This document shows, piece after piece, positions 4,343 to 26,949 of a stretch of DNA of 37,809 nucleotides. The stretch lies in IMG/VR virus record IMGVR_UViG_3300036760_000193, positions 155,395 through 193,203 of that record; one strand, written 5' to 3'. The notes under the pieces are model-generated. The model saw nothing but the letters and a program-made list of their open reading frames with translations, searched no databases and was not told the origin of the DNA. The translations under genes and the position numbers were made by a program. Positions within the stretch are counted from its first letter, which is position 1. Every line of letters begins with the position of its first letter. The DNA comes from a virus (taxonomy: Duplodnaviria > Heunggongvirae > Uroviricota > Caudoviricetes).

Positions 4343-5311
4343 TTAGGTGATTGAGATTTTTACGATACCCTTAGCGTAACGGATAACGAATCCAACGTCT
4401 TCCCAGATGGCGAAAATGTCTGCCATTTGGTTAACATCTTTCATTGTCTCAACGCTAACGTCGGTACGTACTGCAAGCACACCAAGGTATGCAGCAGGAG
4501 CCAACACATAAACGCTGGTGGAAGGAACAATTACGGACTCTAGAACATCAGTGCCCCAAATGTTTCCGACTTTACCGGCTTTCAGTGCTGCTTCTTGGAA
4601 GTTAGGTGCGAAAATACCTGCACCACCACCAGTTCCCGCAGGCCCTGTGTTAAACAGCATGAGGTCTTTTGTTCTAAGCGGATTCAAATAAATCTTTGAA
4701 GCCGTCAAGAGCTTAGACCGCAGTGTTACGATAGACTCTACCAAAACTTCTTGGCTCAAGCGGGTTGCGCTTGTCAATAAGGTAGGGTTATTGGTCGCAG
4801 CGGTTGTACCAGCAAGTGATGCTACTGGTGTTTGCCCTGTTAGACCAGAGGCGAAGTCAATAAGACTAAAGCCTCTCGTATCCTCTTGAAGCATGATGGA
4901 AGCTTTAGCTCTTTCCTGGGTACGGTTAAGAATATCGTACTTGCGGAAGTTGCTTTCGTTCCAACGGATCAAGGGACGTGTTGCAATAGGTGAGGTTTCT
5001 ACACGAATACGGTCTGCTGTGACTACCAATTCCTGTGGAAGACCGTTGACAGCGATGCTGGCTGCTGGCACATCGACATCTGCGTCGAATACGGCTTCTT
5101 CACCCAATGCGAGTTTGTAAGTTTGGAACAGTTGACGAATTCTGCCTTCGTACAAAAGGTCACGTTTCAGAGGTGATAGCATCTGTTGCGCGATCTTCTG
5201 CATTCCGCCAGGGGATTGCATCAATCTGGTCAACTTTTGTTCTACCTGAGCCGCCGTGAGACCACGGGCGTAAATGTCGTCAGGTGAACCTGTTTTTAGT
5301 TGCTCATTCAT
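4343..5311 (-). CDS. Major capsid protein (HK97 fold, encapsulin-like type)
   Basis: 322 aa; order protease/scaffold - decoration - this gene - terminator; AAGGAG RBS; 'PLKRDLLYEGRIRQL', 'QERAKASIMLQEDTRGFSLID' backbone helix and C-terminal 'WEDVGFVIRYAKGIVKI' fit HK97-fold capsids. Confidence 0.85.
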   Translation of the reverse strand: MNEQLKTGSPDDIYARGLTAAQVEQKLTRLMQSPGGMQKIAQQMLSPLKRDLLYEGRIRQLFQTYKLALGEEAVFDADVDVPAASIAVNGLPQELVVTADRIRVETSPIATRPLIRWNESNFRKYDILNRTQERAKASIMLQEDTRGFSLIDFASGLTGQTPVASLAGTTAATNNPTLLTSATRLSQEVLVESIVTLRSKLLTASKIYLNPLRTKDLMLFNTGPAGTGGGAGIFAPNFQEAALKAGKVGNIWGTDVLESVIVPSTSVYVLAPAAYLGVLAVRTDVSVETMKDVNQMADIFAIWEDVGFVIRYAKGIVKISIT

Positions 5312-6038: not shown

Positions 6039-7667
6039 TTACTTAAGTCCGCCGCCATTACCCATAGAATTGAAGATGTCATCTACTTCATGGTCTTCAC
6101 TAGCTGTGTAATTAAGATGAAGAGGATTTGCAAGTCTGCTGCTTGCCTCTTTTCTAATTTTTACATTCTTAACACCATCTTCAAATGACTTGAGAGAAAT
6201 GTCATCCATAGCTAGAAGCGTCTTCACTTGCTTATTTACAGCTTTCTTCAAGGCTGCTTCTCTTGCATCAAGCAAGGTAGAACCACCCTTTATAAATACT
6301 TCAATTTCTGATTGCTCTATGTTAACCATATCTTTTTGTAACATCAAAGCAACTACTGTCTTGCAATGCTCTGTTCGTGCTTGCAACAGAGAACTAAATT
6401 TTTTGGCGTTGATTTCAGCTTCTTGAGCTTTCAATGCGGCTTCTTTCTTGTCAAGCTCTTCGGCTTTCTTCGTGATGGCAGCTTTTTCATGAGAAGCATA
6501 GGCTTCTTCTTTGCTAACTTCAGCTGGTTTTTCTTCAACTGGTGTTGGGCCTTCCATCTTAGGCTCTTCTGCTGCTGGAGCTTCTGGAGTTGCAGGAGCC
6601 ATTTCATCTTTCTTCTCAGATACACCAAGAATAGATTGAAGTAGTTTCATAACAGAAGGTACGTCGAGGCCAAAACCGTCTGGCATACGCTTCGCTTCCG
6701 TTCCTGCTGCGTCTGTGACAACGATTTCTTGAGTCTTAGGGTCTTTCTTCGCCGTCATACCTTCAGCAATTACAATTCCATCGTCCAATTTGTCAAATGC
6801 ACTCTTAGGAGCTTCCATTGGAGCTTCACCTGGTTTAGCAGGTGGGATTGGAGCATCTTCTGGCTTTTGATCTACTGGAACTTCCTCTACCTTCATACCT
6901 GGCTCTTCAACTGCTGGTTCTGCGCCGGGGAAATCTGCTTTTTTCTCAACAGCTGCTTCTTTCTTCTCAGATTCTGGCTTAGATGACTCTAAATGTGCGC
7001 CGACTTCTGTTTCATCAGCCTTGTGAAGGGCGTCCTGAGTTTTATCAGCTGCTTTGTCTTCTTTTGTCTCTTTACCAGGTTTCACGAAAGAACCTTCTGG
7101 CTTAGAAACGGTTGTTTCTGTTTTAAGGTGTTTCTCTTTCTCAGCGACTTTGAATCCAAGGCCGAGAATTTCTGCTGTTTTTGCAAAACCGACTTTCTTA
7201 AATGTTTCTACGAGTTTATCACCATAGGAAGCACTTGCTGTCCAGGAACGATACTTTTCATCCGCCAACTGGTCTTCATCCCACAAGTTTTCAACAGAAG
7301 CTTTAAGAATTTGTTTGTCACCTTGATACAATGCCCAAGATGATTTCTTAAAATCTTCATTTTTGGTGAATTCTGCACGGACATCTGTAGAAGCTGCTTT
7401 TTCTACTCCGCCCTTAGAGACTTTTTCGATCTCTTTCTTCACAGCGGTACTAAATACTTTGCCCAAAGGAGAGTTTTTTACTGCTGCGATAGCTTTGTCC
7501 AAAATTGTTTCATCAGTTTTCACTGGTTCTACTTTAACAGGAACTTCTGCTGTTTTTTCTAACTTTTTTTCCATCCATTTTGCAAATTCAATATACTCTA
7601 GAGCATTAAGCTTAGAAAGAGCCGATGGATTGGAATTTTCCGCTGTTGGCGTTACTTTGTCAGACAT
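6039..7667 (-). CDS. Putative nested in-frame scaffolding protein (MSDKVTPT...)
   Basis: Perfect AAGGAGG followed by AAAGTAAA-ATG (7665-7667), in frame, right after the protease domain. Confidence 0.6.
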   Translation of the reverse strand: MSDKVTPTAENSNPSALSKLNALEYIEFAKWMEKKLEKTAEVPVKVEPVKTDETILDKAIAAVKNSPLGKVFSTAVKKEIEKVSKGGVEKAASTDVRAEFTKNEDFKKSSWALYQGDKQILKASVENLWDEDQLADEKYRSWTASASYGDKLVETFKKVGFAKTAEILGLGFKVAEKEKHLKTETTVSKPEGSFVKPGKETKEDKAADKTQDALHKADETEVGAHLESSKPESEKKEAAVEKKADFPGAEPAVEEPGMKVEEVPVDQKPEDAPIPPAKPGEAPMEAPKSAFDKLDDGIVIAEGMTAKKDPKTQEIVVTDAAGTEAKRMPDGFGLDVPSVMKLLQSILGVSEKKDEMAPATPEAPAAEEPKMEGPTPVEEKPAEVSKEEAYASHEKAAITKKAEELDKKEAALKAQEAEINAKKFSSLLQARTEHCKTVVALMLQKDMVNIEQSEIEVFIKGGSTLLDAREAALKKAVNKQVKTLLAMDDISLKSFEDGVKNVKIRKEASSRLANPLHLNYTASEDHEVDDIFNSMGNGGGLK

Positions 7668-8516
7668 TTTACTTTCCTCCTTGGGAACAGTGCAGCCACA
7701 AAAATCTGCTTGTATTTTTTTCTTTGTTTCATCGTCCAAGCTTGCCAAGATCGTTTTCAGGTGTGACTGTTCTGTAGCGTCTAGAGAAGCATTTTTGCTG
7801 ATTTTGTTTTTCAAATTTGAGGCTATGATACCTTTAATGAACGCACTAGCATCTGCGGGTACATTAACAATTGAAAGTTCATTAAATACTAAGCCACTAT
7901 TAATAGAAAACGCCAAAGTGTCTGCACCCTTTTGAATTCCATACTCTGGAATGTCCACCTCTGCAATGTGTTTCTTCAAAATGCCAGATGGCTCAAGGTG
8001 AGCGCACTTTTGGTCATCATCTGTATGAATGACTGTACCACAAACCGAACACATAGAGGACTCGCAAGAGCATCCCATCGAAACAGTATTAAGTTCGCCC
8101 GTCTCAACCTTCCGGGAGATTTCTGGGTGGAGCTTTCTGTCTATCTTTGCTAAGCACTCTATGTAATATTCACCTGTCTCTGGGTCTTCAACAGGATAAG
8201 CGTCTAAAATTTTTCCAATACTCTTAACTGGATGATCTGATTCATGGTTCAAAAATAAATTACGGCCAGCAAACGTCGAATAAGAAGCTTCAAGTTCTCT
8301 ACGTGGAAAGTAATCTCCGTTCCCATTGGGATTCGGGACACCTTTCTCTGCACCCTGATCTCCTGCTGAAATAGCTCTAGCTCTAAAATACAAAAATTCT
8401 GCATTGCGCGGTTCAATGACTTTTTGTTCTGCCTGTGGTTTCTCGACAACGATATCTTCGAGTGTTACACCCGCAGCCGCGATCTTCACCAATGATCCAA
8501 TTTTATGTAGTGCCAT
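6039..8516 (-). CDS. Prohead maturation protease fused to scaffold/core region
   Basis: Start moved to ATG 8514-8516 (GAGGT RBS; MALHKIGS). N-domain has NGNGDYF, LFLNH (putative catalytic His), SIGKILD, VSMGC (putative catalytic Ser), a Cys/His insert and ELSIVNVPAD, as in HK97/herpes-fold prohead proteases; long E/K/P/A-rich C-terminal part. Confidence 0.8.
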   Translation of the reverse strand: MALHKIGSLVKIAAAGVTLEDIVVEKPQAEQKVIEPRNAEFLYFRARAISAGDQGAEKGVPNPNGNGDYFPRRELEASYSTFAGRNLFLNHESDHPVKSIGKILDAYPVEDPETGEYYIECLAKIDRKLHPEISRKVETGELNTVSMGCSCESSMCSVCGTVIHTDDDQKCAHLEPSGILKKHIAEVDIPEYGIQKGADTLAFSINSGLVFNELSIVNVPADASAFIKGIIASNLKNKISKNASLDATEQSHLKTILASLDDETKKKIQADFCGCTVPKEESKMSDKVTPTAENSNPSALSKLNALEYIEFAKWMEKKLEKTAEVPVKVEPVKTDETILDKAIAAVKNSPLGKVFSTAVKKEIEKVSKGGVEKAASTDVRAEFTKNEDFKKSSWALYQGDKQILKASVENLWDEDQLADEKYRSWTASASYGDKLVETFKKVGFAKTAEILGLGFKVAEKEKHLKTETTVSKPEGSFVKPGKETKEDKAADKTQDALHKADETEVGAHLESSKPESEKKEAAVEKKADFPGAEPAVEEPGMKVEEVPVDQKPEDAPIPPAKPGEAPMEAPKSAFDKLDDGIVIAEGMTAKKDPKTQEIVVTDAAGTEAKRMPDGFGLDVPSVMKLLQSILGVSEKKDEMAPATPEAPAAEEPKMEGPTPVEEKPAEVSKEEAYASHEKAAITKKAEELDKKEAALKAQEAEINAKKFSSLLQARTEHCKTVVALMLQKDMVNIEQSEIEVFIKGGSTLLDAREAALKKAVNKQVKTLLAMDDISLKSFEDGVKNVKIRKEASSRLANPLHLNYTASEDHEVDDIFNSMGNGGGLK

Positions 8517-8517
8517 T

Positions 8518-8937
8518 TTATACCTCTTGTACGTTTCCAAAACTATCAACTTGAAGATTTGGAAGGCCGTCTCCCATAACAACTACACTACAATTGTTAT
8601 CTCCTGGGTGTGATCTCTCAAATATCGGTGCGTCATGTACTAACCCAGATAAAAAATCTTCCAAAGTCCATTGTTGGTTATTCAACTCTACGCATACACT
8701 ATGATTCGACATTCCAGAATTCCATTGAACTGTCTGATACCCGTCATGTAGCAAATTTTCAAGTGTGGGTCTAGACAAGTCCTGTCGGTTATTACCGATA
8801 GCTTCTTTTTTAATGTCAAACCGAGCTTCTTTCTCTGAGGTGATCTTGTTCTTTACTACCTCATCAACCCAGGTTGCAAAATTATTCGTGTTTTTCTCCA
8901 AGCTCATATCCGTAGGACTCCAATATTTTTGACCCAT
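8518..8937 (-). CDS. Minimal MuF/SPP1 gp7-like head morphogenesis protein
   Basis: Between portal and protease; 'W...CVELNNQ...F...HPGDNNC' resembles the MuF C-terminal C...HPxC motif. Start may be the ATG at 8907. Confidence 0.5.
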   Translation of the reverse strand: MGQKYWSPTDMSLEKNTNNFATWVDEVVKNKITSEKEARFDIKKEAIGNNRQDLSRPTLENLLHDGYQTVQWNSGMSNHSVCVELNNQQWTLEDFLSGLVHDAPIFERSHPGDNNCSVVVMGDGLPNLQVDSFGNVQEV

Positions 8938-9479: not shown

Positions 9480-11126
9480 TTATTCTCCTGGTACTGCTGG
9501 TGCTGTAGGGGCTTCCCCTCCTGGGGCACCGCCTGGTGTTGCTTCTCCTGCTCCAGGTTGTCCTGGTTCGCCTGGTTCTTGTGGCATAGGCGGTAAATCA
9601 CCCACACTCATTTCACCACCACCTGGAAGCTTACCACCACCTCCACCGCCTCCACCACCGCCACGGCTAGGTTTGCTGATGCTCTTAGGGAGTCTACCGT
9701 CTTTTGATCCTTTATCGAATATCGTACCACGTTCATCTTCAAGATTCTTAAGTTCCTCATCATAATTGATATTAGGGAACTTAGAAAGAAGCGTTTTTGT
9801 AGAAAGCAAGCCCTTCTCCCAAAAAGCAATGAATCTCTCTTTCTCATCATGCTCTTCTTCGATGTCCAAAGACTTGTTCCAAGAGATGGTAGGAAGGATC
9901 AACTTCTTTTTACCATTATCTGTGGTGTAAAAATTATTCTTTTTGGCAATAGGTCTGAAATACTTATTTATCATCCAGTTCTCGAACCTGTCACGAATGA
10001 CTTTGTATACCATCATTAATTTGTGCAAGGCCATTGTCTTCACATTACTAAATGAAGGCCCTTCACCCAATATGATGTTCTTGTTAACACCCAAACCTAC
10101 CAATAGTTGGTCATGGATGTATTCATACTCATTGTTGATTGGAAACTGCTTACCAAGAGTGCTCAGAGCTTCGTACTTAACAATATCTGGGTACACAATT
10201 GTAAATGGAGGCTGCTGCAATGCCTGGTTAACCATTGATCGAAACTCTTCCAAATCCGCATCTGTCGGATTAATGTTATTGGCAGGGTCTCCGATTTTCC
10301 ACAATTCTACTGGAAATACATAACGCTGAGCAAATGCAGACTGCGCCAAACGAATCCAGTCCTGATAAATTAAAACTTTGAAAAGACATTGAATAGGACT
10401 TGTGCCTCTTGTAGCTGACGGATCAGTCGTGTTGGCGATAATAGAAGCGTGTTCTTCGCTGATAGGAATGTTCTTTCCATTCACTACGGCATCATACGCC
10501 TGGGGAGCTTCTTTCTTCAAACGCTCAATACGAGTTTGATCTTCGTCTTTGGTACTTTTGACAAGCTGTTTAAGCTCTTCATTGGGGACAAGTTCCATAG
10601 TCATCTTACCCTCGAACATGTCATACTGGATTTCTACATATTCTGGTTCAAGAAGAACGAATTTCTCCCAACGATATAGACCGTCTTCGCCTTTTGTCAT
10701 GTTACCAAAGGGAATGGCCTCTCCGAACTTCTGATAGCTTAAGCTGGCCTTTAATAGGAAGTCAAACAAGTCAAAATTCTCATTGAAAGACATTTCTTTG
10801 TAAAACTCTGTGATAGATTCATCATCTGTGCTGATTTCAAACTTAGAAAATGGATACAGGGAGTGCATTATAATAATTTGCTGGACATATGGCTCCAGGT
10901 TGAAGAATATACGCGCCCACTTCAAAATTTCTTGTCTAGATTTTGGAAGTAGCCATGATTCTGTCGTTAATTCTGGTGAATAGAAAAATGAAGACGTAGT
11001 TTGGACGTTTGTTGTCGCCGTCTTTTGCATTCCTCCACTATATGACCCGAATGAAAACGTTGACCCCGTTGTGGTCTTACCGCTTTTCTTTACAAGTCCA
11101 CCTGATTTTGCTTTACCTTTTGCCAT
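9480..11126 (-). CDS. Portal protein
   Basis: 548 aa downstream of terminase; 'RIFFNLEPYVQQII', 'FGEAIPF', 'RGTSPIQC', 'LLVGLGVNKNII' portal-like motifs; Gly/Pro-rich C-terminal tail. Confidence 0.8.
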   Translation of the reverse strand: MAKGKAKSGGLVKKSGKTTTGSTFSFGSYSGGMQKTATTNVQTTSSFFYSPELTTESWLLPKSRQEILKWARIFFNLEPYVQQIIIMHSLYPFSKFEISTDDESITEFYKEMSFNENFDLFDFLLKASLSYQKFGEAIPFGNMTKGEDGLYRWEKFVLLEPEYVEIQYDMFEGKMTMELVPNEELKQLVKSTKDEDQTRIERLKKEAPQAYDAVVNGKNIPISEEHASIIANTTDPSATRGTSPIQCLFKVLIYQDWIRLAQSAFAQRYVFPVELWKIGDPANNINPTDADLEEFRSMVNQALQQPPFTIVYPDIVKYEALSTLGKQFPINNEYEYIHDQLLVGLGVNKNIILGEGPSFSNVKTMALHKLMMVYKVIRDRFENWMINKYFRPIAKKNNFYTTDNGKKKLILPTISWNKSLDIEEEHDEKERFIAFWEKGLLSTKTLLSKFPNINYDEELKNLEDERGTIFDKGSKDGRLPKSISKPSRGGGGGGGGGGKLPGGGEMSVGDLPPMPQEPGEPGQPGAGEATPGGAPGGEAPTAPAVPGE

Positions 11127-18867: not shown

Positions 18868-21800
18868 TCAGTCAGACCTTGGTTGCCCAAAGAACCACGT
18901 CACTTCGTAACTTCCGATTGGCGGGGTCTGTGTAGGCTCCAGAAGGTCTAAGTTAATCTTCTGCTTTCTCTCTGTATCTTCAGGCTTAGGGTAATCCGTT
19001 GTTGACCTATTCCAGTCATGGTAAACGTTTCCACCGCTACCATCACCACCAGGCAGGTCTTCTGCGTGTTGCTCGTCGTAAATTTGCTCCATTTCGTCGT
19101 CAGTATAGGTATTTGACAGGTTTCCAGCGTATTTATAAGTATTTATAATTTTATCTTGACTAGCTGACATCCTCTGTAATGCCAATTCAAGTAGGTCTCG
19201 AACTTTTTGGTAGTCTTTCAACTCCCCACCAATTGGGTCTGCAATGTCCAAATCCCCCATTAAAAACGTTTTTCCTTGAGCTTGTGGGAATAAATCCATT
19301 AAGTCCTCTACTTGCCAGGTCTCCATTACAAAAATTATATCTGCCTGGGCTACATCCGCTTCTGTCACCTGTGTAGATGTGTGAAGCTGATAAGGTATAT
19401 TTTTCTCTTTCAAAACCTGTTCTACAAATGGAGCCGTCTTACCCCCACTTGGAACGTATAGCCCACGCGAAACCACATTCAAATCAGGACGAATGCTACG
19501 TAAAATGTTTTCTGCCATAGGGCTACGGCAAGTGTTGCCAGAACATACAATAAGAACGTTCTTCACTGTCCCCACCGCAACTTTAGTTACATCTCGTTTA
19601 GATAGGCCAGCTGCCATAGCAGGTTCTTCATCCCGCCAATGTTGCTTGTGAACCCTGATGTAGTCCATAACTAATTTTCGGACAGGAGTAGACGCCCTTT
19701 GAAGTAGATAATTCAGAGAATTTTTCTGGGCTTTCATATCCAATAGTTTTTTGAACCACTGATGCCATTCCTCAAATTTATCCAAAAGCTTTCCTGTATT
19801 GTGTCCTAAATCATGGAAATGGTCTATCAATACAACAAGTTTCTGCAAATCTGTTGTATTTTGCATTTCATGGATTGTTCTGGCAACCTCCGCCCATAAT
19901 GGTCCACCATACTGATGCTTCCACGGAGCGAACTTAAAAATTTTATAAAAATCAAAAGCAGAATATTCACTAAAATTATCTGGAGCTTCATACCACGCCC
20001 CACCAGCACCACCGACATATCTACCTTCACCAGCATGTTTCTGTAATCTAATCTTGCGACGAGATTCAAACTGAAATTGTAATTGCTTCTTCTGATTCTC
20101 TTGAAAATCTTTGTCTATGTCTAGCCCCTGTTCATAAGAAACTAGATTGTGACCATTATGTTCTCCGTCTTCAAGCGTATCAGCTGCATCCAAAGACCCA
20201 AGCGCGTCATCTTGGATTATCTTTGGAACAACAAATTTATGGTCGTCTGTACAATAAAATGCTTCTTCTTTTAGAGCCTTAGCCAAAACATCATCGTAAC
20301 ATGAGTCACAATATGTACTTTCATTAAAAGAATACGCACTGTCATCATCCAATCCTTCACTACAATTCTCACAAGAATAAGGGTATTCATATTCATCTTC
20401 TCTATCAGGATCGCCAGAATAATTTCCCGAATATCCAGAATCATGATATTCGTAATATGGCTTTAATTCCTCTGGAAAGTCATCTTCTGGTATTCCCTTA
20501 ACCCATTGTGTAGTTTCTGCTTCATCTTTTAATTCAAACATCCCACGACGAATATATTCTTCACGCAAAGATAGAACGATATTTTGAAAAATCCTAAATC
20601 CATCATAATGTTCTGGGTCAACATTTTTTCCAGAAATTTCTTCTGGTGGTAGTAGGGACATCAAATAAAAATCAACTACATCTTGTTGCTCTACAGCTTC
20701 TTTTTGTAAACTACCACGTCGATTAAAAGTCCTGCGTACTTCTTGTTGTAAGGATTTGAACGGCCACATTACTTCAGCATAGTTATCACTTAAGTCCGCA
20801 ACTATAATAGGTTGACCATCTTCCATGAAAGTTGCTAAAGTATTGTCTATATAGGAAGGAAGATTCTTAATACTGGCAACTTCTACGCCCACCATGCCTC
20901 TTGCGCGAGAAGTGTCACCAATTCTAGCCCAGCCCTTTTCTAACATTTCACGGGCTACATCAAAATAATCTCTCTTTTTGGCATCAACAATTCCATATTG
21001 TTTTTGCAATAAGGGGGCGTTTCTCAAAACCCACTCACCATGAGTTCTAGCTCCACCTTCTCTGGCATTATATGCTTTTCCATCAGGGGCTACCCAGAAT
21101 CCAAATTGAGAAAATGCACGTTTAGAAAGAGGCATTTCAGCCTTGCCTTCTTCCATTAACATCTCATTTACTTCGTCTTCATTGCTGTAGTTCGGGCCGG
21201 TAGGCTTCTTCATGAACTTCCAAGGATATCTCGAATTCAAATTCTCATCATTGGTTCCCCATTCAAATGTGGTTGGCAAAGGCTTGAAAGGTTCCAAATC
21301 TTGGCTTTTGGATGATAAAGGCAACCCAACTGACTCTGGTTTTTGGTCTACTGGTTGTGGCGGTTCTGAAATAGGAATATCATTCTGTGGTTTATTCTTT
21401 TGTTCTAGGTCTTGCATAAATCTATTAACTTCGCGCTGCAAAGACTTGAATGGGTATTTTACAGTAGCCCAATCATTCTGATATACGTCTTCCACATGAA
21501 TCATTGATCCATCTGTAGCAAATGACGCAAGAACATCTTCCACAATCGACGGAATGTTATGAATATCTAATGTTCTAATACCTACCTGAGAACCATGATA
21601 ATCACCAATACGAGTCCAACCTCGTTCTATTAAAATAGAATTGATGTCGAATGATTCCTCACTAGATAAATCTTTTGGGAGACTAATTTTATACTTCTGC
21701 CGTAACATGGTTCTATTGTTCTCAATCCATTCAGCATGAGTAATATCTTTGCCTGTTTCTTTACCACGAACTTCATAAACTTGTTTATCTGGGGCAATCC

Positions 21801-24800
21801 ACCAGGCATGAGCACTGAAAGCAGTTGTTTCAAAATTAGCATGTTTAGAAAGACCTAGAGTCGCTACTTGTTTCTGTCGTAATGGGTGCAGAAATTCATT
21901 AACAGCCTGTTGTAAAGAAGGAAATGGATCGGTGACAACTATAAATACAGAAGTTAAATCTTCAACTCCAATCTGATGTGGGTCTTCATTTGGATCAAAA
22001 AATTTGTCAATTATATTGTCAGCAACTGAGGGTAAATTATGTAGGTCTTTTACCTCAATACAAAATTGAAATCCACCCATATCATTAGTGACTCTGACCC
22101 ACCCAGCTTCTAACATACCAGGAATTATATTCCAAGCATCTTGCAGTAATAAATGACTGTCATATATATCAACAAATTTTGCAAGACGTGGGTCTTTGGA
22201 GTGTGTCTGAATCCAACCTGGATGTGTCTCACCCTTTAATGGTATAAACTCACCATCTGGGGCTACCCAGTATTTTTGATCTAACATAGCTTGTTTAGAC
22301 TGAACTTCCCCAGTTCCACCTGTGGGAATCTCTTGAAAATTCTTCAAATCAAAAATAGAAATCTGATTGTGCTTTTTACCAAGTTCTATAGCTTTCTCAC
22401 GATCTGAGATCGTTAAAGAGATGTCCAAATAGTATTTGCCGCCATTATTCCAAATTCCAAGACTATTATCTGGACTTTGTAATAAATCAGCTTTACTCTG
22501 AATATAATTATTCAAATCTTGAATGGTTGGTTCGTGATCTAAAACAACTGAATGCTCTGGGTATATAGAAACAGCATAGTTTTCAGTCCCAGATAAATTG
22601 CCCTTTGAAAAATTCCATGTGGCACCGCCAGTTTCTCTAACCAACTTAATAATATCTGGTAATACGTCAGCATGTTTCAATAACACTGCAACACGCTGTT
22701 CCCGCTGTTTAGGCTTATTATCTAAACGATGGCGCAACTCATACACTATCTTCTCTTGGATATTTCCAATTGGATCGTCAACCAAGGCATTATTTCCGCT
22801 GTAATCATTAAACCATACACCTTTCTGAATGTTAGGATCAAAGAACTGTTCAACAAAAGGTTCCACAGAAGCTGGCATTTTATTAATATCCCAAACTGTT
22901 ACCATAAATTGTACACTACTATCACCAATTGTAACTCTTGCCCAGCCCTGCTCTTCAATCATATAATCATAAGCTTGATCTAGTAGATACTCACCATCTG
23001 GTGTACCTTCTGTTTCGTATAGTTTATCAAAACCCAGATCATGCCAATTATTTCTTATCCAATCAATATGAATACCATGTACTTTGAAATATTCTCCCTG
23101 GGGAGAAATCCAATACTTAAAATCAAGAGCTTCTTTATTAAGAGACGCAGCCATAGGCGTTTGGCGTTGTATCATTTTCTTTCTTTGTAATTCCTTATTA
23201 ACCGCTCTCTGTAATCCAGAATGCCAATTTGTAACTTCAACCCATGTTCCGTCAGCATCTTCCAAAGTTACAGGAGTATCCGCCCCCATTGTTGATAAAA
23301 GATGCGATTCGATAAAATCTGGTATGTCTTTAAGACTTAAAAGATGAACTCCAAGTTTACGATGATCGTCAGAAATACGTATCCATCCATGTTCAATTAA
23401 TTGAGAAGTCGGATTTTCGTCTTCATACAAGTCGATATTGTATTGATCGTGTAGCATAGTTTCATTGGTCTTTGCCCAATCATCATGAGTTACACCTTCC
23501 CAATTAGAGTAACTGAAATTACCAAAATTATAAAATTTCCCATTTGGGTCGAGCCAACCACGGGCAGCACTGGCCGTCTTTTCTGTTGATGCAGTTTTAT
23601 CTTCTTTGAAGAAATCTAAAATCTTCTGCCATATACCCTTGCGTGGTTTGTCAGCATGTTCTCCGCCTTCCCAAGTCTCTTCATCAGATACTGTGTCTGG
23701 GTCCAATGGTATTTCTACATCACTATCACCTTGCCAAGGATTATCAGGAGCTTGAACAATAGACGGCATGAAAGCAGCAGCTTTTTCTTCTGGTGCGTAA
23801 AGGTCTCTCAGTATTTGTCGTTTAATGTCTTTGGTTGGTATATGAACAGGACGTTCTCGTCCGCCTCTATCCATTATTGTAACATAACCATAACCTACTT
23901 TATCATTCAAATATTGGTTTAACCAATCAGGTATCATTTCTACATCCCACACCAATACTTTTGGTGGTGAAGATTGATCGTCTATAGCTATGTAACCTTT
24001 ATTCAAATATTCTTCATAGGCTTCTTGAGTTAATTCAAATTGGCCTGGATCAACAACATGTGGGGCGTCTCCTGGAGTAAACCAATGAAGTTTAGCTTTC
24101 TTTTCCATGAAATAAGCTACTATATTGACAGAAGAGGTCTTGTTTTTCATCTCTTCTCTGTCTCTCTTCATCCAATATTCATGTTCTGCGGCTCTATTCC
24201 AATAGTCTTCTGTGAGATTAATTACCTGATCTAGCTTCGTAAAAATACCCGTATTATCAGAGTATGAATAATCATGACCCATAGATCGAACTATTTCAGC
24301 GTGTTCAGCGGCAAAGGCATCCCATAAATAAATGTTCCCATTAACATCCATATAATAACGCACAGAAGGCTCTTCGCTTTCATTAAAACAAAGTTCTGCT
24401 TCATCCAATGTCGGATTTTTGTAAACTTTTACAATTTTACCATGTCGTGGTACTTCAATAAGTGTAGCGGCCTTTCGTCTCTTATCAGTCTTGGAGTATC
24501 TGGCGTCTTCAAATTTATTTGCCATATCTCTTGCTACTTCAACAGTTTCTAAAAATCCAGAATTTGAATTTGCACGTCCAAAATTCAGCCCCAAATATGA
24601 AGCAGCAGCATGATGTGTAAAGGAACTGGCGTTCCATATATATAAATCTCCATTATCTGTAGCTCCCCAACGAAGTTCCATATACGATGAATGAGTTAAT
24701 AGTTCTTCGGCATCATCCGCAGTGGGATTCTTTGTAATAGCTCCCCAGTTATTTATCGGTATGACTTGATCTGACGCCTCTTTCTTATTTCCACCACCAA

Positions 24801-26949
24801 GAGTGATAAAAACAGGATCGCCGTCTTTGGGAGAGAATTTAACGGTGTCAAGTTCAAGTTCCAGACCGTCTAATATGTCCACACCAGCGTACTCTTTTCC
24901 AAGTCCGCTTTCCACGTATGCAACTGTGCAATGGGGATGATAGTCTGGTTGTTGATCTTCGTTATCTAATTCCGAAAGTTTCTTGTGAAGCCTATCAATA
25001 TCTTCACTGTCTACCTCAATAAAAATGGCGTCCATATCGTTCTCAAAAACCTTAGTCTTCTTGAACTTTACTCTTACAGGCTTTTCATCTTTTAGAATCT
25101 TCTCTACATCTTTTGAATCATTAGTAAGGAGGCCGAATAGAACGGTGATGTGTGATTCCAACTCTCTACCATATCTCTTTGTGTCATCATCATACAAATT
25201 CTCATTTGGTATGTTCTCTACGCTCCATTCCACGATCTTTTGGGCTATGTCTTTTGGTAAAACAAAGTGGGTAGAGGAATAATCGTACTCAACGTTGTGC
25301 TGCGCTGTTTTGGCTACCATACGTTGACGAACAATAGCTTGATTAACGGCGTTCTGCAAATTTGGAAAGGGGGAAGAAATTTCTACAGTTCCTACATTGT
25401 CTTCGACTTCAATATTTCCTCCCTTATAATTACTTGCTATAAAATCGTCTATATATTCTGGAATTTGTTTCTTATTAGAAAGTTCTATGTTGAATGAACT
25501 TGCATCTTCGTAGGAATCTCCAATACGTACCCAACCAGCGGCTATTAACTCGTAAAGTGACTTCTCTACATTTCTACGTGCCCAACCATCGTGTGTTTCT
25601 CCGTCATCTAATGGAATTACTTTACCTCTGGTGTCTATCCAAACACGAACATCACCGATAGAGGCTTTCTTTTTGGTTTTAGAATGTCCTATTGTGTCAA
25701 CAACATCTTTCCAATCCGTAAATACAATGTTACGGTCGTCAATGTAATATTCTGCGATAGGTTTGCCAATAAAAATTTCATCATACGGAATGTCATGTTT
25801 CTTCATGAATTCTCGTATTTCGTCTGCACCTTCTGGAGTATTTGCTCTGCCACTGTAAATTATAATATTCCAGCCTTCAGATTTCAGTTTATCAAAAGCC
25901 TCTTTGACTCCAGGCATTGGGTCTGATATTTCTCGATCTGGCGTATTCTCAGCAATGGTCTTATCAAAGTCGATCATCAACTTATTGTGATGATTGTCTT
26001 CCAAACCAGCTTTCTTAACAGGCTCTGTTACAATTTCTTTGATCTCAGGAATGACATCTTCTGTTACTTCAATGGTTTCCTCTGTCACTTCCAATAAATC
26101 TTTAAGCTGTGTAATGATGTAGAAATACCCAAACCGTTGAAGATACTTAAATTTAATCTCATCTTCAGACGTGGCATCGAACTCCTTTGTGTGCCGGATC
26201 TGAACCATCTTTGTTTTTATATCAATGAGTTCTTGGATTTCAGTCTCTATGTGTTCAAGTTTGGCATCTAACTTTTCTTTGAACAATTTCTTCGCTTTTG
26301 AATCCCAAGCCTTGATTGTCTCTTGAAGTTCTTCCACTTTAGAAATTTGACGTTTGATGTCTCCAAGGCTGATATCCAATTCTCCAGCCAACTTAGCGGC
26401 ATCTTCAACAAATTTAGGTTTGGACTCCTCGATGTCAAAATCCATACTAATTTTAACAGGGTCTTTTATCCACTTGTCCTCCTGTACGTCGTATATGCCA
26501 ACGCGAGTAGTATCATCGGATGATTTGGGAGTTACAAAATAGAATTCAGCGGGGTGTTTGGTTCCTGGTAAAACAAAAGATGGGTCACTGAAGAATTCCT
26601 TTCTTAGACCGTCTAAGAAATCTTCAGCTTCTTTGGCAGATGCTCCAGCTTTTTCTGATTCTATGAACTTAGGAAAGTCCACATATATATGAATATCACA
26701 ATCCGAGGCGGATGTATATTGGTAGGTTGTTAAACTTCCAACGATATGAATGGATTTATACCAATCTTCAAAATGCTTAAGACCAGCGTTTTCGAGGTTT
26801 TGATTTAGGCGGGATAGGATAGCTTCTTTGTGTTTGGGCAGAAGCTGTCCATCACTGTCCCAGACATTAGGGTCAAGGCCAGGGTGTGGATAATCGAGTA
26901 TTGATGAAAATTTATGAAACACATTGTTGGTTCTTGTTGAAATATTCAT
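18868..26949 (-). CDS. 2693-aa multidomain putative polyprotein (NTase, HAD, 2H/Acb1-like, SAM-lyase-like, LMW phosphatase, repeated unknown domains)
   Basis: Single open frame; catalytic motifs GS..SDCDIH, DFDKT, HIT/HCT, CSGNTCRS; K-x-A at each module boundary. Confidence 0.85.
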   Translation of the reverse strand: MNISTRTNNVFHKFSSILDYPHPGLDPNVWDSDGQLLPKHKEAILSRLNQNLENAGLKHFEDWYKSIHIVGSLTTYQYTSASDCDIHIYVDFPKFIESEKAGASAKEAEDFLDGLRKEFFSDPSFVLPGTKHPAEFYFVTPKSSDDTTRVGIYDVQEDKWIKDPVKISMDFDIEESKPKFVEDAAKLAGELDISLGDIKRQISKVEELQETIKAWDSKAKKLFKEKLDAKLEHIETEIQELIDIKTKMVQIRHTKEFDATSEDEIKFKYLQRFGYFYIITQLKDLLEVTEETIEVTEDVIPEIKEIVTEPVKKAGLEDNHHNKLMIDFDKTIAENTPDREISDPMPGVKEAFDKLKSEGWNIIIYSGRANTPEGADEIREFMKKHDIPYDEIFIGKPIAEYYIDDRNIVFTDWKDVVDTIGHSKTKKKASIGDVRVWIDTRGKVIPLDDGETHDGWARRNVEKSLYELIAAGWVRIGDSYEDASSFNIELSNKKQIPEYIDDFIASNYKGGNIEVEDNVGTVEISSPFPNLQNAVNQAIVRQRMVAKTAQHNVEYDYSSTHFVLPKDIAQKIVEWSVENIPNENLYDDDTKRYGRELESHITVLFGLLTNDSKDVEKILKDEKPVRVKFKKTKVFENDMDAIFIEVDSEDIDRLHKKLSELDNEDQQPDYHPHCTVAYVESGLGKEYAGVDILDGLELELDTVKFSPKDGDPVFITLGGGNKKEASDQVIPINNWGAITKNPTADDAEELLTHSSYMELRWGATDNGDLYIWNASSFTHHAAASYLGLNFGRANSNSGFLETVEVARDMANKFEDARYSKTDKRRKAATLIEVPRHGKIVKVYKNPTLDEAELCFNESEEPSVRYYMDVNGNIYLWDAFAAEHAEIVRSMGHDYSYSDNTGIFTKLDQVINLTEDYWNRAAEHEYWMKRDREEMKNKTSSVNIVAYFMEKKAKLHWFTPGDAPHVVDPGQFELTQEAYEEYLNKGYIAIDDQSSPPKVLVWDVEMIPDWLNQYLNDKVGYGYVTIMDRGGRERPVHIPTKDIKRQILRDLYAPEEKAAAFMPSIVQAPDNPWQGDSDVEIPLDPDTVSDEETWEGGEHADKPRKGIWQKILDFFKEDKTASTEKTASAARGWLDPNGKFYNFGNFSYSNWEGVTHDDWAKTNETMLHDQYNIDLYEDENPTSQLIEHGWIRISDDHRKLGVHLLSLKDIPDFIESHLLSTMGADTPVTLEDADGTWVEVTNWHSGLQRAVNKELQRKKMIQRQTPMAASLNKEALDFKYWISPQGEYFKVHGIHIDWIRNNWHDLGFDKLYETEGTPDGEYLLDQAYDYMIEEQGWARVTIGDSSVQFMVTVWDINKMPASVEPFVEQFFDPNIQKGVWFNDYSGNNALVDDPIGNIQEKIVYELRHRLDNKPKQREQRVAVLLKHADVLPDIIKLVRETGGATWNFSKGNLSGTENYAVSIYPEHSVVLDHEPTIQDLNNYIQSKADLLQSPDNSLGIWNNGGKYYLDISLTISDREKAIELGKKHNQISIFDLKNFQEIPTGGTGEVQSKQAMLDQKYWVAPDGEFIPLKGETHPGWIQTHSKDPRLAKFVDIYDSHLLLQDAWNIIPGMLEAGWVRVTNDMGGFQFCIEVKDLHNLPSVADNIIDKFFDPNEDPHQIGVEDLTSVFIVVTDPFPSLQQAVNEFLHPLRQKQVATLGLSKHANFETTAFSAHAWWIAPDKQVYEVRGKETGKDITHAEWIENNRTMLRQKYKISLPKDLSSEESFDINSILIERGWTRIGDYHGSQVGIRTLDIHNIPSIVEDVLASFATDGSMIHVEDVYQNDWATVKYPFKSLQREVNRFMQDLEQKNKPQNDIPISEPPQPVDQKPESVGLPLSSKSQDLEPFKPLPTTFEWGTNDENLNSRYPWKFMKKPTGPNYSNEDEVNEMLMEEGKAEMPLSKRAFSQFGFWVAPDGKAYNAREGGARTHGEWVLRNAPLLQKQYGIVDAKKRDYFDVAREMLEKGWARIGDTSRARGMVGVEVASIKNLPSYIDNTLATFMEDGQPIIVADLSDNYAEVMWPFKSLQQEVRRTFNRRGSLQKEAVEQQDVVDFYLMSLLPPEEISGKNVDPEHYDGFRIFQNIVLSLREEYIRRGMFELKDEAETTQWVKGIPEDDFPEELKPYYEYHDSGYSGNYSGDPDREDEYEYPYSCENCSEGLDDDSAYSFNESTYCDSCYDDVLAKALKEEAFYCTDDHKFVVPKIIQDDALGSLDAADTLEDGEHNGHNLVSYEQGLDIDKDFQENQKKQLQFQFESRRKIRLQKHAGEGRYVGGAGGAWYEAPDNFSEYSAFDFYKIFKFAPWKHQYGGPLWAEVARTIHEMQNTTDLQKLVVLIDHFHDLGHNTGKLLDKFEEWHQWFKKLLDMKAQKNSLNYLLQRASTPVRKLVMDYIRVHKQHWRDEEPAMAAGLSKRDVTKVAVGTVKNVLIVCSGNTCRSPMAENILRSIRPDLNVVSRGLYVPSGGKTAPFVEQVLKEKNIPYQLHTSTQVTEADVAQADIIFVMETWQVEDLMDLFPQAQGKTFLMGDLDIADPIGGELKDYQKVRDLLELALQRMSASQDKIINTYKYAGNLSNTYTDDEMEQIYDEQHAEDLPGGDGSGGNVYHDWNRSTTDYPKPEDTERKQKINLDLLEPTQTPPIGSYEVTWFFGQPRSD
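19135..19575 (-). other. Domain: low-molecular-weight phosphatase (YwlE/PtpA fold)
   Basis: VLIVCSGNTCRSPMAE P-loop, ADIIFVM, DIADPIGG. Confidence 0.9.
22297..22668 (-). other. Domain: possible SAM lyase (T3 SAMase-like)
   Basis: GIW...YLDIS...AIELGKKHNQISIFDL resembles the G-aromatic...acidic...A..LG...Q pattern of phage SAM lyases; recalled similarity only. Confidence 0.4.
24784..25302 (-). other. Domain: 2H phosphoesterase, Acb1/T4 gp57B-like
   Basis: Two HxT motifs: ESHITVLFG (H at 25150-25152) and YHPHCTVAY (H at 24931-24933), about 170 aa. Confidence 0.8.
25672..26007 (-). other. Domain: capless HAD-family phosphatase
   Basis: IDFDKT (motif I), IIIYSGR (II), GKP (III), YIDD (IV). Confidence 0.85.
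26017..26905 (-). other. Domain: Pol-beta-superfamily nucleotidyltransferase plus helical bundle
   Basis: IVGSLTTYQYTSASDCDIHI (hGS...DxD), third acidic residue in PAEFY, followed by a coiled coil. Confidence 0.75.

What the first reader, a model, noticed from the sequence alone, without database searches (positions are those of the whole stretch)
20704..25662. Seven diverged copies of an unrecognised ~120-140 aa domain (repeat A) inside the polyprotein
Seen: consensus W(I/V)xPxG..y......H..W..........l...GWxR(I/V)......(I/L)P..(I/V)......V..PF..LQ..V at about 25312-25662, 23137-23571, 22678-23127, 21847-22287, 21400-21837 and 20704-21114, plus a degenerate copy at 23785-24093 (WFTPG...GYIAI...IPDW). 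Invariant His, Trp and Arg in the six full copies suggest a ligand or nucleotide pocket. Inference: paralogue expansion next to an Acb1-like enzyme fits an arms-race effector, for example a signal-nucleotide sponge or inhibitor with diversified specificities. I cannot name the family.
Basis: partly seen in the sequence, partly recalled or inferred. Interest (0 to 1): 0.75.

Follow-up and report, generated by a model that had tools for sequence, protein, structure and literature searches.

The report
Unnamed repeated domain in phage cargo polyprotein
A 2,693-residue protein of an uncultured 193-kb sediment phage carries six intact copies and one short copy of a protein domain that has no name, no database family and no recognisable fold; the copies are probably cut apart in the phage head and delivered into the host, but what they do there is unknown.

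Summary
Pairwise BLASTP E-values reach 1e-30. Leave-one-out profiles score 49-108 bits, against at most 14 for shuffled copies.

The domain matches nothing in Pfam, PHROGs, NCBIfam or PDB sequences. A confident AlphaFold model (pLDDT 93) has no fold match (best Z 4.3). It is nonetheless a real family. A profile finds 273 representative proteins, all metagenomic. Most are giant phage "polyvalent" proteins with 2-11 copies, alongside 2H/Acb1-like, LMW-phosphatase, ART and SAM-lyase domains.

Over 166 instances His28 is invariant, and W7, P10, G12, W31, G67, W68 and R70 are 93-99% conserved. All of these lie in an N-terminal ~65-aa sub-module that also occurs alone.

Every copy is bounded by K-x-A. 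The same motif sits near the N-termini of the major capsid and portal proteins and litters the protease/scaffold protein. Release by the head protease is therefore likely, but inferred.

The paralogues are old: none of the 166 instances has its nearest relative in the same protein. This is not a recent local expansion.

Function is unproven. My best guess is a virion-delivered binding module. The sponge, enzyme and structural readings remain open. The scan had noted K-x-A-type junctions in polyvalent proteins of other genomes, but not this domain.

The parts
18868..26949 (-). 2693-aa polyvalent cargo polyprotein that holds all copies of repeat A. It also holds an NTase-like domain, a HAD-like domain, a 2H phosphoesterase, repeat B x2, a phrog_17808 module, a low-molecular-weight phosphatase and a conserved C-terminal tail.
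   Evidence: ORF and translation. Pfam and PHROGs. Homologous giants of 1000-2650 aa.
25312..25656 (-). Repeat A copy 1 (aa 432-546), between the HAD-like and 2H domains. It is bounded by KKA (aa 427-429) and KTA (aa 547-549).
   Evidence: HMM i-E 1.2e-35. Junctions.
23785..24093 (-). Short His-less copy (aa 953-1055). It keeps the W-x-x-P-G hairpin and the C-terminal sub-module but lacks the H..W helices and the Arg. It is bounded by KKA (aa 950-952) and KAA (aa 1056-1058).
   Evidence: Family-HMM i-E 3.5e-6 over aa 974-1050. A conserved subtype in P0007, P0009, P0024 and P0003.
23167..23571 (-). Repeat A copy 2 (aa 1127-1261), preceded by a doubled KTA junction (aa 1118-1120 and 1124-1126).
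   Evidence: HMM i-E 3.4e-49. Junctions.
22681..23127 (-). Repeat A copy 3 (aa 1275-1423), bounded by KEA (aa 1272-1274) and KHA (aa 1425-1427).
   Evidence: HMM i-E 1.4e-46. Junctions.
21856..22287 (-). Repeat A copy 4 (aa 1555-1698), bounded by KQA (aa 1552-1554) and KHA (aa 1702-1704).
   Evidence: HMM i-E 3.6e-54. Junctions.
21397..21819 (-). Repeat A copy 5 (aa 1711-1851). This is the copy that was modelled.
   Evidence: HMM i-E 2.6e-56. AlphaFold models: pLDDT 87.7 and 93.0.
20704..21114 (-). Repeat A copy 6 (aa 1946-2082), bounded by KRA (aa 1943-1945) and KEA (aa 2083-2085). It is the only basic copy (pI 8.9).
   Evidence: HMM i-E 1.5e-51. Junctions. pI.
24910..25167 (-). 2H phosphoesterase core (aa 595-680) with two H-x-T motifs, directly after copy 1.
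   Evidence: Pfam 2_5_RNA_ligase2 E 3.4e-11. Acb1 E 9e-4, below its cut-off.
6039..8582 (-). 847-aa protein with a head-maturation-protease domain (aa 63-277) and a long tail holding most of the protein's 19 K-x-A motifs. It is the candidate processing protease plus scaffold.
   Evidence: phrog_18299 E 4.1e-16 and phrog_2774 E 8.7e-23. K-x-A list.
4343..5311 (-). Major head protein, with G-G-M-Q-K-I-A at aa 35-41.
   Evidence: phrog_2522 E 7.5e-35. Motif.
9480..11126 (-). Portal protein, with G-G-M-Q-K-T-A at aa 31-37.
   Evidence: phrog_16240 E 8.4e-39. Motif.

Best explanation
Repeat A is a genuine and so far unnamed phage protein domain. It has a strongly conserved N-terminal sub-module of about 65 aa: a beta-hairpin W-[IV]-x-P-x-G-K-x-[YF], then helices starting T-H-x-x-W, then a strand G-W-x-R-[IV]. 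A more variable C-terminal half has the order strand-strand-helix, strand-strand-helix.

In this phage, six intact paralogues and one conserved His-less short form are strung into a 2693-aa 'polyvalent' protein encoded just upstream of the terminase, portal, protease and capsid genes.

Most likely course of events:
1. The polyprotein is loaded into the prohead (inferred).
2. The head-maturation protease cuts it at the K-x-A junctions that bracket every module, giving separate 12-18 kDa, mostly acidic proteins (inferred).
3. These enter the host with the DNA (inferred).
4. There each module acts as a non-catalytic binding unit. The conserved His28/Arg70/Trp cluster forms the constant part of the site, and the length-variable loops next to it (positions 19-26 and 44-55) give each old paralogue its own target, which could be a host protein or a small ligand (inferred).

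Shown here: the domain, the size of its family, its conservation pattern, the age of its paralogues and its junction motif. Packaging, cleavage and binding are inference.
For: The domain is real and forms a family:
- Repeat statistics.
- A profile finds 273 proteins at E<=1e-3 among 1.84 billion representatives.
- Of the best 150, 91 have at least 2 copies, 24 have at least 4, and 60 are at least 1000 aa long.

It belongs to the polyvalent-protein class:
- Co-occurring domains are 2H/Acb1, LMWPc, NTP_transf_2, ART-PolyVal, SAM lyase and GNAT.
- Synteny giant gene -> ~470 aa -> ~1000-1200 aa is kept in L009, L010 and L011, and runs on to terminase and portal in L011.

Conservation:
- H28 is 100% conserved; W7 98%, P10 99%, G12 95%, W31 95%, G67 93%, W68 99%, R70 99% over 166 instances.
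- His is also invariant in 109 instances that have only the N-module.
- Insertions and deletions concentrate at profile positions 19-26 and 44-55.

The junctions look like protease sites:
- K-x-A sits at all 11 boundaries of the seven copies, and also between unrelated modules.
- Across the family, 179 of 312 instances have K-x-A within 20 aa upstream of W7, against 11.5% of random windows. The modal spacing is 6 aa, seen in 77 cases.
- G-G-M-Q-K-[IT]-A lies at aa 35-41 of the capsid protein and aa 31-37 of the portal. There are 19 K-x-A motifs in the protease/scaffold protein.
- The giant ORF is the most K-x-A-enriched of the 229 ORFs I called in the genome. Six of the nine most enriched ORFs are the large neighbouring head-module ORFs.

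The modules can work as separate proteins:
- Contig L008 encodes three of them as consecutive separate genes.
- The solo protein P0053 carries N-K-Q-A six residues before the Y-W and S-K-H-A after the domain.

The paralogues are old and are kept:
- None of 166 instances has its nearest neighbour in the same protein.
- Module order is shuffled between homologues.

Other points:
- Most modules are acidic, median pI 5.0, which argues against generic nucleic-acid binding.
- Published precedent for packaged and processed multi-domain effectors: PMC5512222. For protease-processed ejection proteins in giant phages: PMC7411985 and PMC5694885.
Against: - There is no experimental or structural evidence of any ligand or partner.
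- I could not inspect model coordinates, so no pocket has been shown. W7, W31, W68, H28 and R70 may simply be the core of a very small domain.
- A His-less, Arg-less short subtype is conserved in at least four proteins. Not every member therefore needs that site.
- Multiplicity does not exclude catalysis. ART domains occur up to 12 times in one polyvalent protein (PMC5512222).
- No virion proteomics exists for this uncultured phage, so cleavage at K-x-A and packaging are unproven.
- The homologous portal in L011 lacks the N-terminal K-x-A.
- The K-x-A enrichment per ORF is only about two-fold.
Confidence: 0.4

Rival explanations
1. Signal-nucleotide sponge. Each released module sequesters a host immune messenger such as a cyclic oligonucleotide or an ADPR derivative. 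The Trp residues stack on the bases and His/Arg hold the phosphates. Many copies per polyprotein raise the stoichiometric capacity of a protein that is delivered in limited numbers.
For: - The invariant His and Arg and the three Trp residues are residue types typical of nucleotide sites.
- The domain co-occurs with 2H/Acb1-like phosphodiesterases in 19 of 30 and 4 of 31 scanned relatives.
- High copy number, up to 11 per protein.
Against: - No similarity by sequence or fold to any solved protein, known sponges included. Absence from a hit list is not exclusion.
- To my knowledge, the known sponges (Tad1, Tad2, Acb2) bind at oligomer interfaces. No oligomer evidence was obtained here.
- A conserved His-less subtype exists.
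- If all copies bound one ligand, long-term retention of 25-35% identical paralogue lineages would be unexplained.
Confidence: 0.15
2. Structural head-internal protein. The modules are bulk 'bolus' or inner-body-like proteins, or packing or ejection aids, that occupy the capsid interior. They would have no specific host target.
For: - The gene lies in the head-morphogenesis block.
- Repeat A makes up about a third of this polyprotein and more than half of P0002.
- Giant phages such as SPN3US carry a >40 MDa mass of protease-processed ejection proteins (PMC7411985, PMC5694885).
- The His-less subtype is retained.
Against: - An absolutely invariant His and a 99% conserved Arg over about 275 very diverged instances are more than bulk filler should need.
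- No sequence relation to any cultured phage's head proteins.
- The modules are interleaved with enzymes of obvious effector type.
Confidence: 0.2
3. Enzyme with a new fold. His28 acts as the catalytic base or nucleophile and Arg70 stabilises a phosphate or carboxylate, for example in a phosphotransfer or hydrolytic reaction on a host molecule. The paralogues would differ in substrate.
For: - His is 100% and Arg 99% conserved. Semi-conserved polar residues are N35 (73%), D85 (64%), D111 (65%), Q128 (84%) and N132 (70%).
- Catalytic domains can be highly multiplied in polyvalent proteins: 12 ART copies in one protein (PMC5512222).
- Several LPD domains were judged potentially enzymatic on similar grounds.
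Against: - There is only one invariant polar pair and no recognisable catalytic motif.
- The remaining invariant residues are Trp, Gly and Pro, which are typical fold determinants.
- There is no fold relation to any enzyme.
- The His-less subtype is conserved.
Confidence: 0.12
4. Uncleaved in-cis module. K-x-A is only a linker habit. The giant protein stays whole and repeat A serves as a spacer or docking domain that positions the enzyme domains.
For: - Cleavage has not been shown.
- Some plasmid polyvalent proteins are transferred full length (PMC5512222).
- The K-x-A enrichment per ORF is modest.
Against: - The same modules exist as separate small genes (L008) and as a solo gene with flanking K-x-A motifs.
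- The motif recurs at the N-termini of the capsid and portal proteins and densely in the scaffold-like tail of the protease protein.
- The spacing of K-x-A to W7 is sharply fixed at 6 aa across the family.
Confidence: 0.08

Closest known systems
Polyvalent proteins of phages and conjugative elements, and their uncharacterised 'LPD' domains (Iyer, Burroughs, Anand, de Souza, Aravind 2017; PMC5512222)
   Same: - A giant phage protein that combines unrelated enzyme domains (NTase-like, HAD-like, 2H, LMW phosphatase).
- It is encoded beside the packaging and head genes.
- Relatives carry ART-PolyVal, Acb1-like, SAM-lyase and GNAT domains.
- Repeat A behaves like an LPD: it has no known function, occurs mostly in such proteins, and is occasionally found solo.
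   Different: - Repeat A matches none of the LPD models in Pfam. The LPDs that are not in Pfam could not be checked.
- No zincin-like processing peptidase or MuF/portal fusion was found in this protein. The junction motif points instead to the head-maturation protease.
- One non-enzymatic domain at 2-11 copies dominates the protein's mass.
Protease-processed ejection, inner-body or internal proteins of large phages: the SPN3US/phiKZ E proteins (PMC7411985, PMC5694885, PMC10052503), and T4 IPI-III/Alt (from my own knowledge)
   Same: - Head-module genes.
- Paralogous families.
- A short consensus cleavage motif shared with the capsid, portal and scaffold proteins.
- Presumed delivery with the DNA.
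   Different: - No sequence similarity to any cultured phage.
- The motif here is K-x-A rather than the x-x-E type I recall for T4 and phiKZ (own knowledge).
- The paralogues are fused in one polyprotein rather than encoded as separate genes.
- No proteomic evidence is available.
Anti-CRISPR AcrVA3 (PDB 9kja; PMC13001698), the best structural match of the N-terminal sub-module
   Same: A small mixed alpha/beta phage protein. VIA-align gives Z 4.3, rmsd 3.0 A, with 60 of 69 residues aligned to model residues 2-73. AcrIIA15 CTD also appears, at Z 3.0.
   Different: - The Z-score is far below the 7-8 that the tool gives as the usual best score for models without a clear Foldseek match.
- Sequence identity is 15% and there is no sequence hit.
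- AcrVA3 works through a basic DNA-binding patch, whereas repeat A modules are acidic (pI about 5).
- This is a lead only, not a relationship.
Phage immune-signal sponges Tad1, Tad2 and Acb2 (from my own knowledge)
   Same: Small phage proteins with no enzymatic motif. The conserved aromatic and basic residues are compatible with nucleotide binding. They sit in a genomic or functional neighbourhood with signal-degrading enzymes.
   Different: - No sequence or fold similarity was detected.
- Oligomeric state is unknown.
- No ligand has been tested.
Pfam DUF3297 (PF11730), function unknown
   Same: Three of 109 instances with only the N-module give sub-threshold matches. The best is E 3e-5; P0096 as a whole protein scored 25.4 bits against a cut-off of 27. 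The matches cover the helices and the G-W-x-R strand.
   Different: - None of this protein's own copies matches.
- All scores are below the curated cut-off.
- DUF3297 has no known function either, so a relationship would explain nothing.

Membership tests
Polyvalent proteins (Iyer et al. 2017) | Several domains with disparate biochemical activities in one polypeptide of a phage or plasmid | tested here: met
   LMWPc E 3.7e-23, 2_5_RNA_ligase2 E 3.4e-11, a HAD-like domain (phrog_1238, E 4e-18) and an NTase-like N-terminus (phrog_36119), all in one 2693-aa ORF. Relatives carry ART-PolyVal.
Polyvalent proteins (Iyer et al. 2017) | Encoded with the virion or packaging genes | tested here: met
   The gene lies two genes upstream of the large terminase, then portal, protease and capsid. 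Homologous loci keep the downstream ~470-aa and ~1000-1200-aa genes; L011 also shows terminase and portal.
Polyvalent proteins (Iyer et al. 2017) | Packaged in the virion and delivered with the DNA | not testable with these tools
   The phage is uncultured and comes from a sediment metagenome. No proteome is available.
Pfam LPD families (large polyvalent-protein-associated domains) | Significant match of repeat A to an LPD profile | tested here: inconclusive
   No LPD model matches at E<=1. Not all of the 40 LPDs of the 2017 paper are in Pfam, and its supplementary alignments were not available to me.
Immune-signal sponges (Tad1, Tad2, Acb2) | Sequence or fold similarity to a known sponge | tested here: inconclusive
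   No such family or chain appears in the Pfam, PDB-sequence, Foldseek or VIA-align output. Absence from these lists does not exclude a relationship.
Immune-signal sponges (Tad1, Tad2, Acb2) | Binds a cyclic or ADPR-derived signalling nucleotide | not testable with these tools
   This needs ITC, DSF or a co-crystal structure.
AcrVA3-like fold | Clear structural superposition, plus the basic DNA-binding patch used by AcrVA3 | tested here: not met
   Z 4.3, rmsd 3.0 A, 60 aa aligned, which is below any reliable level. The modules are acidic, with median pI 5.0, whereas AcrVA3 uses an Arg/Lys patch (PMC13001698).
Pfam DUF3297 (PF11730) | Score at or above the gathering cut-off (27 bits) | tested here: not met
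   The only whole-protein score reported is 25.4 bits, in a distant relative (P0096). Three of 109 N-modules match at E<=0.1. None of this protein's copies matches.
Known structural repeats (Ig-like/Big, FN3, collagen-like, beta-helix) | Profile match, or an all-beta repeat fold | tested here: not met
   No Pfam or PHROG match. The model is a mixed alpha/beta domain with five helices and six strands.
phiKZ/SPN3US-type ejection or inner-body proteins | Sequence homology to those proteins | tested here: not met
   tblastn of aa 1127-2082 against 50,697 phage records hit only the non-repeat module between copies 3 and 4, in two Rhodococcus phages.

The most novel reading that the evidence does not exclude
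Repeat A founds a new family, with a new fold, of virion-delivered counter-defence binders. Each old paralogue lineage neutralises a different host immune protein or messenger. A single polyprotein with 6-11 modules, cut at K-x-A in the capsid, would then deliver a ready-made multi-specific inhibitor set before any phage gene is expressed.
Probability: 0.2. Interest if true: 0.8.

Novelty: new variant of a known kind. Interest (0 to 1): 0.55.

Why it matters
Polyvalent phage proteins are thought to be pre-made toolkits injected with the DNA. Most attention has gone to their enzymes.

Here the largest share of such a protein, and of many relatives, is one unnamed domain with a confident model that resembles no solved fold. 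It has an absolutely conserved His. It is kept as many old paralogue lineages that are shuffled between phages.

If it proves to be a binder or sponge, it would add a new structural class of anti-defence proteins and a set of natural, modular specificities. If it proves structural, it would define a new kind of head-internal protein.

Either way, the family (273 representative clusters, none annotated) deserves a profile in the domain databases. The K-x-A junctions give a simple rule for cutting these giants into units that can be expressed.

Tried and rejected
- **Family libraries.** Pfam, PHROGs and NCBIfam scans of the whole protein and of each copy found no family for repeat A.
- **PDB sequence searches.** Profiles of 7, 149 and 109 sequences found nothing below E 0.02. 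The 0.023 hit to the PepSY-like chain 3due covers only 35 residues and was not pursued.
- **Fold searches with two models.** Foldseek against PDB gave best E 0.054 and 0.064. VIA-align against 48,161 chains gave best Z 4.2 and 4.3 (villin/gelsolin-like domains, Stay-Green, AcrVA3). The ESM Atlas by shape gave TM at most 0.40 by query. BFVD gave one hit at E 2.8e-4 but TM 0.24 (an uncharacterised Atu_ph07 protein) and one at probability 0.99, TM 0.48, with no name. None names a fold.
- **Cultured phage genomes.** A profile search of the Bacillus phage G and Agrobacterium phage Atu_ph07 genomes found no match.
- **ESM Atlas by sequence features.** Scores were at most 0.83 (YunG-like leads), which is inside the range of shuffled sequences. 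There was no usable hit for P0096.
- **Other collections.** tblastn against plasmids found nothing. A near-length protein search for solo forms found nothing. The longer-length search returned only unnamed metagenomic proteins.
- **Related loci.** The single-protein scan of viral contigs found no relative.
- **Homodimer test.** The prediction for one module returned no verdict. It is not used as evidence either way.
- **RNA.** No RNA holder is listed for the stretch.
- **PD-(D/E)xK nuclease or cytidine-deaminase-like fold.** Foldseek and Atlas hinted at these at TM 0.2-0.4. I rejected them because none of the defining catalytic motifs is conserved.
- **HNH-like beta-beta-alpha reading of the N-module.** I rejected it. 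There are no metal ligands, and AcrVA3's published resemblance to I-HmuI concerns the DNA-binding part of I-HmuI (PMC13001698).
- **WW, WGR and GW domains.** I considered these from the motif pattern alone. I rejected them because there is no profile match and the secondary structure differs.
- **Trypsin-like protease as the processing enzyme.** The protease gene near the giant gene (27381-28091) has an N-terminal signal-like sequence. Its homologue in L011 has a lipoprotein-type start. An envelope location is therefore more likely.
- **Homology of repeat B to repeat A.** hhalign gives only a 23-column local match (E 0.0032, probability 10%), so this is unresolved.
Full report
**Setting**

The window is the right end (155395-193203) of a complete 193,203-bp virus record with direct terminal repeats. 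The record was assembled from a sediment metagenome. All large genes lie on the minus strand.

In the direction of transcription the order is:
- a peptide deformylase;
- several large ORFs of unknown function;
- a trypsin-like protein;
- an endonuclease-VII-like gene;
- the 2693-aa ORF (18868-26949);
- a second endonuclease-VII-like gene;
- ORFs of 474 and 1036 aa;
- the large terminase, which is 28% identical to that of Bacillus phage G;
- the portal;
- an 847-aa protein with a head-maturation-protease domain;
- the major head protein;
- fibre-like proteins.

**The observation**

- Pairwise BLASTP E-values among the six run from 1.8e-30 to 2e-3.
- A profile finds all six at i-E 1e-35 to 3e-56 and finds nothing else in the window or the genome.
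- Leave-one-out profiles score the omitted copy at 49-108 bits, against at most 14 bits for 500 shuffles.
- Ten positions are invariant in the six copies: W7, H28, W31, G67, W68, R70, D73, P90, D111 and Q128.

**The short copy**

The short copy (aa 953-1055) is significant only over its C-terminal half (i-E 3.5e-6). It lacks the His/Trp helices and the Arg. The same short, His-less form occurs at about 45% identity in three other giant proteins (and at 34% in P0003), and those three share the same '...LYAPE.(K/M)AA' end. It is therefore a conserved subtype, not a decaying copy.

**Is the domain known?**

It is not.
- Pfam, PHROGs and NCBIfam give nothing for any copy.
- Profiles of 7, 149 and 109 sequences find no solved chain below E 0.02.
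- AlphaFold gives a confident model: pLDDT 87.7 from six sequences and 93.0 (pTM 0.87) from 149.
- The order of elements is beta-hairpin, three helices, hairpin, helix, hairpin, helix.
- Foldseek finds nothing in the PDB (best E 0.05-0.06).
- An exhaustive VIA-align pass over 48,161 chains peaks at Z 4.2 and 4.3. The tool states that models without a clear Foldseek match typically reach Z 7-8.
- The top row, anti-CRISPR AcrVA3, covers only the N-terminal 70 residues. AcrVA3 works through a basic DNA-binding patch (PMC13001698), whereas these modules are acidic. I treat it as a lead only.
- BFVD and the ESM Atlas give only uncharacterised or low-TM rows.

**The family**

A profile of the six copies, scored against 1.84 billion representative proteins, finds 273 proteins at E<=1e-3, 110 at E<=1e-10 and 36 at E<=1e-30. 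Among the best 150:
- 91 carry at least two copies;
- 24 carry at least four copies, and the maximum is 11 matched stretches;
- 60 are at least 1000 aa long;
- 15 are under 250 aa.

The named sources are all metagenomes, and the only name given is 'hypothetical protein'. No plasmid or cultured phage carries the domain.

The relatives share the N-terminal architecture NTase-like, HAD-like, repeat A, 2H. Together they carry 2H/Acb1, LMW phosphatase, NTP_transf_2, ART-PolyVal, SAM lyase and GNAT domains. This is the 'polyvalent protein' class of Iyer et al. 2017 (PMC5512222). Repeat A behaves like one of that paper's uncharacterised LPD domains, but it matches none of the LPD models in Pfam.

**Anatomy and conservation**

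Over 166 full instances the conservation is: H28 100%, W7 98%, P10 99%, G12 95%, W31 95%, G67 93%, W68 99%, R70 99%, P90 92% and Q128 84%. All but the last two lie in the first 70 residues.

That N-terminal part also occurs alone. It forms tandem units in more distant proteins and makes up the 135-aa protein P0096, which is two such units. Across 109 of these instances His is again invariant.

Length variation concentrates in two loops, at positions 19-26 and 44-55, on either side of the His.

From helix and strand periodicity, H28, W31 and N35 share one face of the first helix, and W68 and R70 share one face of the following strand. The conserved cluster is therefore probably one site or one mini-core. 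This is inference, because I could not read model coordinates.

**Age of the copies**

In a maximum-likelihood tree of the 166 instances, each of the six copies is sister to a copy in another protein, with support 0.74-0.999. No instance anywhere has its nearest neighbour in the same protein.

Module order differs between homologues. The copy-3 type lies downstream of the copy-4 type in P0008. The array is therefore a set of old paralogue lineages that are shuffled as cassettes. It is not a recent local expansion.

**Junctions and likely processing**

K-x-A stands at all eleven boundaries of the seven copies, and also between unrelated modules.

Across the family:
- 57% of instances (179 of 312) have K-x-A within 20 residues upstream of W7, against 11.5% of random windows.
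- The spacing has a sharp mode of six residues, seen in 77 cases.
- 66% have K-x-A at the domain end.

In this phage:
- G-G-M-Q-K-I-A lies at residues 35-41 of the major head protein, and G-G-M-Q-K-T-A at 31-37 of the portal.
- The 847-aa protein, a protease domain with a long tail, holds 19 K-x-A motifs.
- The giant ORF is the most K-x-A-enriched of the 229 ORFs I called in the genome: 24 observed against 11.4 expected. Six of the nine most enriched ORFs are the large neighbouring head-module ORFs.

A solo homologue (P0053) carries N-K-Q-A six residues before its Y-W and S-K-H-A after the domain. One contig encodes three modules as consecutive separate genes.

The simplest reading is that K-x-A is the head-maturation protease site and that the modules are freed as 12-18 kDa proteins. 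This follows the published pattern of processed ejection proteins in large phages (PMC7411985, PMC5694885, PMC10052503). It is inference: no proteome exists, and the L011 portal lacks the N-terminal site.

The trypsin-like gene near the giant gene has a signal-like N-terminus. Its L011 homologue has a lipoprotein-type start. It is therefore probably not the capsid protease.

Earlier notes of this scan had proposed the K-x-A delimiters in this protein (e1-5611217). They had also reported similar K-[TS]-K-A and I/L-S-K-R-A junctions in polyvalent proteins of other genomes (e1-3269163, e1-5369586). I tested only the first of these.

**Function**

Nothing tested here reveals it. The arguments run as follows.
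- For a binding module: most invariant residues are fold-type (Trp, Gly, Pro), with a single invariant polar pair; variable loops flank that pair; the paralogue lineages are old and retained; the modules are acidic; and the company is effector-type enzymes.
- Against relying on multiplicity: ART enzymes reach 12 copies in one polyvalent protein.
- Against relying on the His: a His-less subtype is conserved.

My odds are:
- virion-delivered binding module with an undetermined target: about 0.4;
- structural head-internal protein: 0.2;
- nucleotide sponge: 0.15;
- enzyme: 0.12;
- uncleaved in-cis spacer: 0.08.

**Verdict**

This is a real, sizeable and unannotated domain family with no recognisable fold, inside a known class of phage proteins. 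The sponge/inhibitor idea remains open.

Noticed in passing
window 5189-5209 (major head protein aa 35-41) and 11016-11036 (portal aa 31-37): Two unrelated structural proteins share the heptapeptide G-G-M-Q-K-[IT]-A about 35-40 residues from their N-termini. It looks like a common propeptide cleavage site of the K-x-A type.
   Followed up: partly
window 26912-27379 and 18408-18803 (minus strand): Two endonuclease-VII-like genes flank the giant ORF. The upstream one overlaps the giant ORF's start by 38 nt. No gene of matching size occupies those positions in the homologous loci L009-L011, which suggests free-standing mobile endonuclease insertions.
   Followed up: no
window 27381-28091 (minus strand); L011:9077-9982: A trypsin-like peptidase (Trypsin_2, E 2e-20) with a signal-like N-terminus lies just upstream of the giant gene. 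Its L011 homologue has a lipoprotein-type start and directly abuts the giant gene. L009 and L010 instead have a Peptidase_M50 gene a few genes upstream.
   Followed up: partly
window 24094-24774 (aa 726-952, repeat B x2): Repeat B is itself a family. Iterative search finds 55 domains in 42 of the 150 repeat-A proteins. It shares a hairpin-Gly-x-x-Tyr...His motif with repeat A, but hhalign gives only a 23-column local match (E 0.0032, probability 10%).
   Followed up: partly
window 18871-19125 (aa 2609-2693): The C-terminal ~85-residue tail after the last K-x-A (K-Y-A) shows conserved positions in the consensus of the 30-giant alignment. It could be a capsid-targeting or portal-docking element.
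   Followed up: no
window 13646-16756, 16972-18396, 30197-32980, 32993-34972 (minus strand): Four more large ORFs of unknown function around the giant gene rank among the most K-x-A-enriched in the genome (8-17 motifs each, about twice the number expected). They may be further cargo polyproteins.
   Followed up: partly
L008:1516-3224: A 3.4-kb metagenomic contig encodes three consecutive separate genes of 156-190 aa, each a diverged repeat-A module with Leu in place of W31. This is a 'split' form of the array.
   Followed up: partly
window 22297-22668 (aa 1428-1551): The module between copies 3 and 4 (phrog_17808) is the only part of the repeat region with relatives in cultured phages: Rhodococcus phages Madraxi and Jflix2, 32-37% identity, annotated as hypothetical proteins.
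   Followed up: no
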